64,000 nucleotides of DNA from NCBI RefSeq assembly GCF_055900595.2, contig NZ_CM148325.1; one strand, given 5' to 3'. Below are positions 18,001-21,000 of the stretch, piece by piece; position 1 is the stretch's first letter, and each line of letters starts with the position of its first letter. The position numbers were made by a program.

Positions 18001-21000
18001 AGTCCGGCCCCAGCTCAAGCCCGGTACTGACAGTCACGCCATCAGCTGTTCCGGATACAAACTGGTTGTCATGGTTTACCAGTGTTCCGCCATTCACTGT
18101 TTCACCCGGGTGCACAACGATGTCAGCAGCCAGCACCGGGAGTGACGTGACTGCGGCAAGAGACAGTGCAACCGCCACACCGCCACGTTTACCCCGTGCG
18201 CGGGCCAGTTCGGAGGCAACCACGAAAGCGCCCGTAATGTGATTCCATACCAGCCTGTAGCAGGTATTCAGATGTCGTTTCATCAGCATTTCCTTAATCA
18301 GAGTGAGGGTGAATAAAAAAGCCGGTATCCACAGATGTGGATACCGGCAGGTAAAGGATTACAGTGCCGGAGGTCCGGCTGACGGAAGTTTCTGACGTGT
18401 GGCTCTGTTGTTCCCTGAATCTCATGTCTGTGTGTATCTGCGCACGTTGCTAACAGGAGTTATTATTAGCATGACGATCGATATAAACGATCGATAAAAT
18501 AAGTATCGATCGTTTTATTCTATTATCAGGCTATTGCACGGACAAGAGAGACAGTAACGAAAACAGCGCTTTTGTGAGCAGACTCAGAGGCAGGGAGGAC
18601 ATCATCCACAACAGGTTCAGAAGAAGATCCAGTTCCATACCGCGCGGGCAACAGAGACCACGGTGTCACGAACAGCGCGCAGGGCCGTACGGACAACAGA
18701 GGCAACACAGACGCTCTCCGCTGTGTCAAATATCCGGTCCACCGCACCGGTAAACTGCTCACGGGCCTGAGCGCGGACAGATTCCGTGCGCAGCTCGTCC
18801 TGCAGGCGGGTCATCAGGGGACTGGCGGCATGGTCGGGAAGCGCTGTCATGAGCGCACTGACCAGCGTATCCACTTCCCAGCCGGTGCGGGCCGATACGG
18901 CCACAACCGGATGTACAGGCCGGAACAGACGGAATACCGCCTCCGTTTTTTCGCGAATGTTCTGTGCCTGTGCGGGAGAGGGCTGAATGCCGGCCATATC
19001 CCATTCATGGCAGGGCTCCGTTTTGTCGGCCTGTGTCACCACAAACAGCACCTGCTGATGTCCGCACTGCAGGATGTGTCGCCAGAAATACTCATCCACA
19101 GACAGGGCCCGGTCATCGGCTTTAATCAGCCACAGCACCAGGTCCAGTTCAGGCAGAATGTCACGGTACAGGGCTTCATACTCTGCATCCCTGTCCCGGC
19201 TCTCGCCCACCCCGGGCAGGTCAGTGATAACCATGCTGTAACCGTGACCACTCAGACGGAAGCGCTGCACTTCCCGGGTGCCGGCGTGAACATCACTGAC
19301 CGGTGTGACCTCCCCCTGAAACAGGGCATTACAGAGTGAAGATTTACCGGCCCCGCTTTTACCCATAATGCCAATCACGGGCTCGTGACGGGTGAGTTTG
19401 CGCAGATGTTCCAGGATGTGACGGGAAAGCGAGTAAGGCAGGGAGGAGAGCGGTTTTTCAATTGCCTCAATGGCATCAGACGGATTCATACATGTATTCC
19501 CGGTGAAAAAAGACAAAACCCCGCACACCGGAAAGGTGGCGGGGGATCCACGGAGATAATATCTGTCTGAAATTGTTTGGAATCGATGGGGATGTTGCGT
19601 ATTAACATGAAGGAGGGCAGGAGTTATCCGTTATTGGGTGATATCCTTCCATGAAAATACGCGGTTATTGTTAAACAGCAGGCTGATTACTCCGTAAAGG
19701 AGAAAAATATTCATCTTGCAGCCTGATTATCAGGTGTGTTTATGTTTACTGAGGTGAGTATTTTTCAGTATATTGTCGGGGCAGTCAGTGGGAGATATTA
19801 AATTTACGTTTAGAGTTATCTTGCTTCTGCTGTGTATTTTTATAAGAGTGCGCACGTAATGATATCTGTTGATACCATGTTGTTAAGTGTTTCCCTTCCG
19901 GGTCATGCGTACTTGCAAAATGGCATCTGAATCGATCACGGTTTGGCCAAACCGTGATCGAATAGATAGGAATACGCACGTAATGATTAAATGCTTTTGT
20001 TACACCATTCTTCCGGCATGAATATTTATCCAGTTCCCTTTTTTATTTGTGTAGTGATACTGTCGGAATAGCGTTCAGTAATGTGAAGTGTCCTGTAAAA
20101 AAACTTTAATAAATGTGTCATCCTGGTCAGGAAATATCTGCTGAGATATTATTAGTTGGTGGTGTTTTTACTGAGTAATAGCTGGCTTTTAATTCCTGAA
20201 CTGAAATACTGTCGCTCGTCAGGGTTTAATTAAAACTGGATGATGATGTGAAAATGAAGGCTGGTTTTTGTGTTTGTCGAAGAAGTGTTATTTTAATCCA
20301 TTCTCATCATTGGCTGGCGATTATACAGAAGTATTTGAAGAAAAAATGTTGCATTTTATCTGTGTCAGCAGGGAGGAAGTATTTTATTGATGTATCAGTA
20401 TTAAATGGTTTTTGTTATTTATAAAAATGTCATCCTGTCCATAGAATATTGTACTCAGCATTCAGTGCAGGAACTGTCATTTTCTTTATTTTATTCTTCT
20501 TCAGGAGGGCAGTTTTCTGAAAGCGTTACTCCGGGGAAACTGTTTATGTTTATTCCCGGCAGGAAACCCGTACCTGCAATACCCTGGATGATGCTTTTTG
20601 CTGGTACGTTGTTGTGTGAAATTTAATCAACGTGTGTGTTCCGGAGAGCGCCCGTAGACGCACAGATTCATTCTGACACTCTTTAGCGACAAAATACCGA
20701 ATGGTTATTATTTAATCTGAAAATCGACAGAAATTTTTATCCTGTATTGATTCTGCTGCTATTTTTGCTATTAGTAGCAATAGTTGCGGTACTTTATGTT
20801 CTGTGTGTTGTGAGGTCATTATGCCATACTTTCAGTATCCTGATGAGTTTCCCCTGAGCTCGCTGCCTCCACTCATTCGTGATGCCGTTATTGAAGCTCA
20901 GCAAATCACGCAGGCTCCCCTGGGGCTTGTGGCAGCATCTGCCCTGGGCGCTGTTTCACTTGTCTGCCAGAATCTGATTGATGTCTGCAGACTGAATACA

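What the first reader, a model, noticed from the sequence alone, without database searches (positions are those of the whole stretch)
19852..19990. 28-bp perfect palindrome flanked by direct repeats in the yeeP upstream region
cgatcacggtttgg/ccaaaccgtgatcg is a perfect 14+14 palindrome containing two GATC sites, bracketed about 60-80 bp either side by cgcacgtaatgat direct repeats. It lies in a long AT-rich non-coding stretch between yeeP and the DUF3987-like gene. It could be a dimeric regulator operator, a methylation-sensitive site, or the end of a small non-autonomous element.
Basis: seen in the sequence. Interest (0 to 1): 0.35.

Follow-up and report, generated by a model that had tools for sequence, protein, structure and literature searches.

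The report
Palindrome is a dead insertion-sequence scar
The perfect palindrome is what is left when the two mirror-image ends of an IS21-family jumping gene are joined after its interior is lost, so it is an ordinary 65-bp transposon relic and not a regulatory site.

Summary
A perfect 15+15 palindrome (19932-19961) with two GATC sites and two copies of CGCACGTAATGAT are present.

The palindrome is not an operator. It sits in the middle of a 65-bp segment (19914-19978). That segment is the left end (33 bp) of an ISSso4-like IS21-family insertion sequence joined directly to its right end (32 bp), with TG...CA termini. The 2.5 kb of istA-istB between them is missing. Each arm is one copy of the roughly 20-bp GATC-containing repeat that is reiterated in the ends of the full-length element.

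Closely related Ag43/yeeP/YfjI islands have an empty site (GGTCATGCGTAATGATT). The segment is therefore an insertion, and the island does not need it.

The perfect symmetry is lineage-specific. Other copies and the parent element read CCAATCC or CCAAGCC where this window reads CCAAACC.

The "direct repeat" is a composite. Its right copy is the last four bases of the IS (CGCA) plus native flank (CGTAATGAT).

A second, 72-bp relic of the same IS type lies at 24570-24641.

Still unresolved:
- Whether the 65-bp unit moved as a miniature element or arose by deletion where it sits.
- Two stray bases (CT) at the left junction.

Verdict: an ordinary transposon remnant of low interest.

The parts
19914..19978 (+). 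65-bp miniature derivative of an ISSso4-like IS21-family insertion sequence (left end plus right end, TG...CA termini, no coding capacity).
   Evidence: BLAST of the full-length IS (L006 9001-11639) against the window: IS 1-34 matches 19914-19947 at 94%, and IS 2607-2639 matches 19946-19978 at 91%. The segment is absent from the empty site in L002 and L011.
19914..19946 (+). Left terminal inverted repeat with the first repeat unit (L1), cut off after TTTGG.
   Evidence: 31/33 identical to the L006 left end. 33/33 identical to the left end of the decayed variant in L005.
19947..19978 (+). Right terminal inverted repeat with the outermost repeat unit (R1), ending in the terminal CA.
   Evidence: 29/32 identical to the L006 right end.
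19932..19961 (.). The 30-bp perfect palindrome: L1 and R1 joined head to head at the internal deletion junction (TTTGG|CCAAA).
   Evidence: The full-length ends read ...TTTGGCAT... and ...ATGCCAAT..., so the junction fits a deletion across a shared GC.
19908..19911 (.). Left copy of the apparent 4-bp target duplication CGTA. It is followed by two unexplained bases, CT (19912-19913).
   Evidence: The empty site GGTCATGCGTAATGATT in L002 compared with the filled site in the window, L010 and L012.
19979..19982 (.). Right copy of the apparent target duplication CGTA.
   Evidence: Full-length copies elsewhere show duplications of 4-5 bp.
19851..19863 (+). Left copy of CGCACGTAATGAT: native island sequence, outside the element. 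It reads ACACGTAATGAT in the L002 and L010 lineages.
19975..19987 (+). Right copy of CGCACGTAATGAT: a composite of the last four bases of the IS (CGCA, 19975-19978) and native flank (CGTAATGAT).
24570..24641 (-). Second, older relic of the same IS type (72 bp, 7 extra central bases, terminus mutated to ACTCA). It lies between an hha pseudogene and an inovirus-Gp2-family gene.
   Evidence: The same context occurs in L004.

Best explanation
The palindrome is the centre of a 65-bp non-coding relic of an IS21-family insertion sequence of the type that NCBI's genome annotation pipeline labels ISSso4. The relic consists only of the outermost 33 bp of the left end and the outermost 32 bp of the right end.

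The two ends of such an element are inverted repeats. Each begins with one copy of a roughly 20-bp GATC-containing repeat. By analogy with IS5376 this repeat is presumed to be the IstA transposase binding site; here that is inferred, not shown. Loss of the 2.5-kb interior puts the L1 and R1 copies head to head and so creates a near-palindrome.

In this lineage a single T-to-A change in the right arm made the palindrome perfect. The direction of that change is inferred from the parent element and the other copies.

The relic entered the yeeP-yfjI gap of one lineage of this island family as an insertion. An empty site is shown, with an apparent 4-bp duplication CGTA. It is now most likely inert. 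It has one truncated repeat per end, whereas IstA of IS5376 needs two complete repeats per end in vitro. No full-length partner lies in the window.

Whether the interior was lost before the unit moved here (a miniature element mobilised in trans) or after a full-length copy landed here (deletion in place) is not settled. I lean slightly towards a single origin followed by movement, because the identical internal junction occurs in an unrelated plasmid context.
For: Shown:
- The two halves match the termini of a 2639-bp istA-istB element, 31/33 and 29/32. The left half matches a variant left end 33/33.
- The parent element has the features of the family. Its IstB matches Pfam PF01695 at 1e-60. 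Its IstA has Mu-transposase C-terminal and rve domains. It has TG...CA termini. It carries five repeats spaced 22-24 bp on the left and at least two on the right. Its target duplications are AAGC, CGAAG and GATAC.
- Related islands with the same flanking genes have the uninterrupted site GGTCATGCGTAATGATT (L002; also the 81%-identical L011). The class of roughly 1080 records with two aligned pieces fits this empty state.
- The central base of the right arm varies among copies: A here, G in L010, and T in the plasmid copy, in the second window copy and in all full-length elements.
- The same 65-bp unit with the same junction lies in an unrelated plasmid context (L003, L008, L009).
- The perfect palindrome is in 772 of 5426 complete E. 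coli genomes, essentially all carriers of the filled site.

From the literature: IS21-family ends are made of direct repeats L1/L2 and R1/R2, and IstA of IS5376 requires two complete repeats per end for integration in vitro (PMC10122671).
Against: - The junction is not a clean transposition product. Two extra bases (CT, 19912-19913) sit between the left CGTA and the IS terminus in every filled allele examined.
- The plasmid copy has no recognisable target duplication.
- The parent's typical duplication looks like 5 bp in two of three cases, not 4.
- Nothing here tests protein binding, methylation or transcription, so an acquired secondary role cannot be formally excluded.
Confidence: 0.93

Rival explanations
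1. Origin variant A. The 65-bp unit is a miniature inverted-repeat element. It formed once, probably on a plasmid, and was then moved into the island by IstA/IstB supplied by a full-length copy.
For: - The internal junction is identical in two unrelated contexts: the island and an IncF-type plasmid region.
- None of 5426 complete E. coli genomes has a full-length element at this site.
- There is presence/absence polymorphism with a 4-bp duplication.
- A different junction in the 72-bp relic shows that deletions do not always land at the same place.
Against: - Only two contexts exist for this junction across 5426 genomes, the plasmid collection, 100,044 species representatives and the metagenome scan. 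A mobile miniature element would be expected in many.
- It has one truncated repeat per end, whereas IS5376 IstA needs two complete repeats per end in vitro.
- Two stray bases (CT) lie at the left junction, and the plasmid copy has no duplication.
Confidence: 0.5
2. Origin variant B. A full-length element inserted here and its interior was later deleted in place. The deletion would be by slippage or microhomology joining between the inverted ends, as in 'nearly precise excision' of Tn10. The plasmid copy would then have arisen independently in the same way.
For: - The junction TTTGG|CCAAA equals a join across the GC shared by TTTGGCAT and ATGCCAAA.
- Inverted ends favour symmetric deletions. 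Nearly precise excision and microhomology-scarred IS loss are documented (references and text in bioRxiv 10.1101/2023.06.07.543989).
- The relic looks incompetent for transposition.
- Remnants of this IS's ends are widespread: 1775 genomes have some match but only 225 have a near full-length copy.
Against: - It requires the same 2-bp microhomology to have been used twice independently.
- No full-length occupant of this site was found.
Confidence: 0.42
3. The palindrome is a functional operator for a dimeric regulator of yeeP or yfjI, or a Dam-methylation switch like the one upstream of agn43.
For: - It has perfect dyad symmetry with two GATC sites in a divergent promoter region.
- It folds as a strong hairpin as single-stranded DNA: -15.5 kcal/mol, z = -4.7.
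Against: - The whole segment is absent from the commonest allele of the same island, which has the same genes.
- Its sequence is fully explained by IS termini.
- The symmetry is broken in L010 and in the parent element.
- No Rfam family matches the gap.
- No T-run follows either arm, so it is not an intrinsic terminator.
- The perfect allele is one clonal variant, not independently maintained.
Confidence: 0.03
4. It is an IS21-type 'reactive junction': right end abutted to left end, as in tandem (IS21)2 or a circle intermediate, which creates a promoter.
For: IS21-family elements are known to form abutted-end junctions (own knowledge; mentioned).
Against: The order is the opposite. The TG and CA termini face outward at 19914 and 19978, and the centre is internal IS sequence. 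The consensus scan found no promoter across the junction.
Confidence: 0.01

Closest known systems
ISSso4-like insertion sequences of the IS21 family (istA transposase plus istB AAA+ helper)
   Same: - The termini are identical or nearly identical to the two halves of the 65-bp unit.
- Both have TG...CA tips.
- Both carry the same GATC-containing repeat unit.
- Both produce short target duplications.
   Different: - The window element has no istA or istB.
- It keeps one truncated repeat per end instead of five on the left and two or three on the right.
[quoted passage not shown]
   Same: - It is tiny and non-coding.
- Its ends are derived from a known IS.
- It shows presence/absence polymorphism.
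- A short direct duplication lies at the site.
   Different: - Only two contexts share this junction, plus one more context for a sister relic.
- The junction is irregular.
- The ends are probably too short to be used by the transposase.
Palindromic remnant left by 'nearly precise excision' of Tn10 (Ross, Swan and Kleckner 1979; Foster et al. 1981; recalled from memory, cited in the reference list seen)
   Same: A deletion between the inverted ends of a transposon removes the interior and leaves a short palindromic scar at the original site.
   Different: - That case involves the long IS10 inverted repeats of a composite transposon and a longer direct repeat at the deletion endpoints.
- Here the ends are about 33 bp, the microhomology is 2 bp, and formation in place is not shown.
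The Dam/OxyR GATC switch upstream of agn43 in the same island
   Same: It has GATC sites in a non-coding region next to the Ag43 locus.
   Different: - That switch lies between agn43 and yeeP, near the IsrC/IS102 RNA hit at 18308-18513, which is a different gap.
- Nothing links the IS relic to OxyR or to phase variation.

Membership tests
IS21 family (tested on the parent element, L006 9001-11639) | Two consecutive genes, istA (DDE transposase) and istB (AAA+ helper). | tested here: met
   The genome annotation pipeline labels the genes as an IS21-family transposase and an ISSso4-family IstB. Pfam gives IstB_IS21 at 1e-60, Mu-transpos_C_2 at 3e-20, and rve at 32.1 bits, just under its 32.6 cut-off.
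IS21 family (tested on the parent element) | Termini 5'-TG...CA-3' and terminal inverted repeats built of several direct repeats (L1, L2...; R1, R2...). | tested here: met
   The ends read TGCAAAATGG...GGAATACGCA. There are five repeats spaced 22-24 bp on the left and at least two on the right. The family feature is taken from PMC10122671.
IS21 family (tested on the parent element) | Short target-site duplication (4-8 bp). | tested here: met
   AAGC in L006, CGAAG in L014 and GATAC in L015.
Derivative of an ISSso4-like IS (the window element 19914-19978) | Both ends match the parent termini, and the match stops at the insertion boundaries. | tested here: met
   The halves match 31/33 and 29/32 (33/33 to a variant left end). 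The boundaries coincide with the indel against the empty site, to within the two CT bases.
MITE | Small, non-coding, with terminal inverted repeats related to an autonomous IS. | tested here: met
   It is 65 bp long. The two halves are imperfect inverted repeats over about 32 nt and perfect over the inner 15.
MITE | Flanked by a target-site duplication of the length made by the parent transposase. | tested here: inconclusive
   CGTA is duplicated, but two extra bases (CT) intervene on the left. The plasmid copy has no duplication.
MITE | Multiple copies at unrelated sites, showing mobilisation in trans. | tested here: inconclusive
   Only two contexts carry the 65-bp junction and one carries the 72-bp sister relic, in all collections searched.
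MITE | Ends sufficient for the parent transposase to act on. | not testable with these tools
   By analogy with IS5376, two complete repeats per end are needed in vitro, and this element has one truncated repeat per end. A direct assay with ISSso4 IstA/IstB is required.
Operator or Dam-sensitive regulatory site | Conserved wherever the regulated genes are present, with its symmetry maintained. | tested here: not met
   It is absent from the commonest allele of the same island. The symmetry is broken in L010 and in the parent IS.

The most novel reading that the evidence does not exclude
The 65-bp unit may be a genuinely mobile IS21-family miniature element with a single truncated transposase-site repeat per end. 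It would have been moved from a plasmid into the island by IstA/IstB acting in trans. This would mean ISSso4-type transposases can use far shorter ends in vivo than IS5376 IstA uses in vitro.

A related unexcluded idea concerns the GATCs. Every repeat unit in the ends of this IS carries a GATC: 8 of the element's 12 GATCs lie in the terminal 225 nt or so. Dam methylation might therefore gate transposase binding, as it does for IS10 and IS50. I found no paper reporting this for the IS21 family.
Probability: 0.2. Interest if true: 0.3.

Novelty: new member of a known kind. Interest (0 to 1): 0.1.

Why it matters
It matters little biologically. The finding removes a candidate regulatory site from consideration and annotates two short stretches (19914-19978 and 24570-24641) as IS21-family relics.

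It has some practical uses:
- The relic is a clean presence/absence marker that separates two lineages of the Ag43/yeeP/YfjI island family in E. coli. It is filled in about 772 of 5426 complete genomes.
- Such 65-bp repeats shared between plasmids and chromosomes can seed recombination or assembly chimeras. One chimeric metagenome contig was seen.
- It illustrates how perfect palindromes in enterobacterial islands can arise from IS ends.

Tried and rejected
- Rfam at a permissive threshold over 15000-26000 found only the known IS102/IsrC RNA outside the gap, so there is no support for a small RNA.
- The promoter/terminator scan of the gap gave counts equal to the shuffled controls, and nothing lay across the palindrome.
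- I searched the window for other copies of the palindrome with up to 3 mismatches and found none. The second relic appeared only when the full IS was aligned to the window.
- I scanned one genome per species (100,044 species) for the junction. There was one hit, a plasmid-type contig in a Collinsella metagenome-assembled genome (MAG), probably E. coli plasmid DNA. The unit is therefore essentially confined to E. coli and its plasmids.
- I looked for a full-length element at this exact site, using a query that fused the island's left flank to the IS left end. No record among the 5426 genomes covered 80% of it.
- I looked for an empty site in the plasmid context and found none, so insertion could not be tested there.
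- Literature searches for an IS21- or ISSso4-derived MITE in E. coli, and for Dam control of IS21-family elements, returned nothing relevant. MITEEc1, which appears in those papers, was mentioned in them only as an item in lists of mobile elements; none linked it to IS21 or ISSso4, and I did not compare its sequence with the 65-bp unit.
- I tried to explain the two extra CT bases as a 5- or 6-bp duplication with a mutation, or as carried-over donor flank. No version fits without ad hoc steps, so they are left unexplained.
- I considered that the CGCACGTAATGAT repeats might be element boundaries or target duplications. I rejected this because the right copy is half IS and half flank, and the left copy is polymorphic native sequence.

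Full report
**What is in the sequence.** The window reads TCGATCACGGTTTGG/CCAAACCGTGATCGA at 19932-19961. This is a perfect palindrome of 15+15 with no spacer, one base longer on each side than reported, and it has GATC at 19934 and 19956. It is the only perfect palindrome in the window with arms longer than 8. In 200 block shuffles the longest arm was 12. CGCACGTAATGAT occurs at 19851 and 19975. It is the only exact 13-mer direct repeat within 200 bp in the whole window. The two copies are not symmetric about the palindrome: there are 68 nt on the left and 13 nt on the right.

**Setting.** The window is 99.9% identical over this gap to many E. coli chromosomes, Nissle 1917 among them. There the gap carries no annotated gene. 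It lies between a yeeP-like GTPase gene with agn43 behind it and, divergently, a YfjI (DUF3987) gene. The gap is 38% GC against 48.6% for the window.

**The decisive comparison.** A 281-bp query around the palindrome split E. coli into classes:
- About 780 genomes have the whole stretch.
- About 1080 records match at 90-95% in two pieces spanning only 205 bp.
- Several hundred records match only the central 65 bases or so, in other places.

Alignment shows that the two-piece class has an uninterrupted site, GGTCATGCGTAATGATT. I checked this directly by sequence in L002, and 17 rows of the hit table show the same pattern. The window instead has GGTCATGCGTA-CT-[TGCAAAATGG...GGAATACGCA]-CGTAATGATT. 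A more distant island (L011, 81% identical) also lacks the segment. So 19914-19978 is an insertion, and the island genes exist with and without it.

**Identity of the inserted segment.** Half-length matches were abundant on conjugative plasmids, usually two per record. Opening such records showed why. The left half of the segment is the left terminus, and the right half is the right terminus, of a 2639-bp element carrying istA and istB. NCBI's genome annotation pipeline labels these as IS21 family and ISSso4-family IstB.

Pfam confirms IstB_IS21 (1e-60) and a Mu-type/rve transposase. Identities are 31/33 and 29/32 to that copy, and 33/33 to the left end of a decayed variant.

The full-length element has these features:
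- It starts with TG and ends with CA.
- It carries five copies, spaced 22-24 bp, of a unit like ATCGATCAnnGTTTGGCAT on the left, and at least two inverted copies on the right.
- It is flanked by duplications AAGC, CGAAG and GATAC in three insertions.

These are the hallmarks of the IS21 family. Its ends are built of direct repeats L1/L2 and R1/R2, which the transposase IstA binds (PMC10122671).

**Why there is a palindrome.** The window element retains only L1 and R1. Because they belong to inverted ends, joining them head to head gives dyad symmetry. The junction TTTGG|CCAAA is what a deletion across the GC shared by TTTGGCAT and ATGCCAAA would produce. That reading is inferred.

The parent's R1 reads CCAATCC, as do the plasmid copy of the mini-element and the second window copy. 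L010 reads CCAAGCC, and only the window lineage reads CCAAACC. Perfect symmetry is therefore a single-base peculiarity of one clonal allele. That allele is present in 772 of 5426 complete genomes, and its symmetry is not a conserved property.

The two GATCs are part of the repeat unit. In the full element, 8 of 12 GATCs lie in the terminal 225 nt or so, one per repeat.

**The direct repeats.** The right copy is CGCA, the last four bases of the IS, followed by CGTAATGAT, which is native flank. The left copy is native sequence 51 bp outside the element and reads ACACGTAATGAT in L002 and L010. The island therefore had a 9-bp chance repeat, which the IS terminus and a polymorphism extended to 13. 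The repeats are neither target duplications nor element boundaries.

The 13 bases before the left copy resemble the IS right tip at 10 of 13 positions (family D3). I regard this as chance but could not test it.

**How it got here, and whether it is active.** The same 65-bp unit, with the same internal junction, lies in an unrelated plasmid region (L003, L008, L009 and five metagenome contigs). The following searches together yielded only these two contexts, plus one context for a 72-bp sister relic with a different junction:
- 5426 E. coli genomes
- the plasmid collection
- one genome per species for 100,044 species
- the metagenome collection

No genome has a full-length element at the island site.

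An identical junction in two places favours a single origin followed by movement. Several points favour deletion in place or an inert scar:
- The number of contexts is very small.
- Two unexplained bases (CT) lie at the left junction.
- The plasmid copy has no duplication.
- IS5376 IstA needs two complete repeats per end in vitro.

I cannot separate these models with the data available. Either way the window holds no istA or istB, so the relic is stranded here.

**Rejected readings.**
- Operator or methylation switch: rejected because the segment is dispensable and its symmetry is not conserved.
- Small RNA: no support from Rfam. The strong hairpin is a trivial consequence of the palindrome.
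- Intrinsic terminator: there is no T-run after either arm.
- IS21 'reactive junction': the ends face the wrong way.

**Comparison with what is known, and verdict.** The element is a derivative of a known IS of a well-studied family, and the way it creates a palindrome is unremarkable. I found no paper describing this particular 65-bp derivative. It is therefore at most a new, very low-copy member of a known kind: an IS relic or miniature element. Interest is low.

Noticed in passing
window 24570-24641 (minus strand): A second relic of the same IS21-type ends. It is 72 bp, has seven extra central bases (TATTCCG), and its right terminus is mutated to ACTCA. It lies between an hha pseudogene and an inovirus-Gp2-family gene. 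The same context is widespread in E. coli (for example L004).
   Followed up: partly
window 18308-18513 (minus strand): A full-length Rfam match to IS102/IsrC RNA (250 bits against a gathering score of 46), between agn43 and the yeeP-like GTPase gene. This is a known feature of this locus.
   Followed up: no
window 20106-20137 and 20418-20449: A 32-nt imperfect direct repeat (75%), TTAATAAATGTGTCATCCTGGTCAGGAAATAT and TTTATAAAAATGTCATCCTGTCCATAGAATAT. Each copy overlaps a promoter-like hexamer pair upstream of yfjI. It may be a duplicated promoter or operator region.
   Followed up: no
L011 (E. coli GF131), about 1700-1740 and beyond: In a diverged version of the same yeeP-yfjI gap, a tandem array of the heptamer CTGCGCC replaces part of the sequence.
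   Followed up: no
L006 9001-9135 and 11550-11639 (ends of the full-length ISSso4-like element): Every repeat unit in the IS ends contains a GATC. Eight of the element's 12 GATCs lie in the terminal 225 nt or so, against 4 in the 2.4-kb interior. This hints at possible Dam influence on transposase binding. No literature on this was found for the IS21 family.
   Followed up: partly
L048 (metagenome contig OGOR01012903.1), about 1289-1366: This contig joins the plasmid-type left flank to the island-type right flank inside the 65-bp element. It is either a real recombinant across the shared relic or an assembly chimera.
   Followed up: partly
window 19905-19913; L008 4990-5001; L015 3005-3015: The left flanks of several insertions of this IS type share ATGnnTAC just before the terminus (CATGCGTAC, CATGTATAC, TATGGATAC). 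This may be a target preference.
   Followed up: no
window 19912-19913: Two bases (CT) between the left copy of the duplicated CGTA and the IS terminus are present in every filled allele examined. Simple transposition does not explain them.
   Followed up: partly
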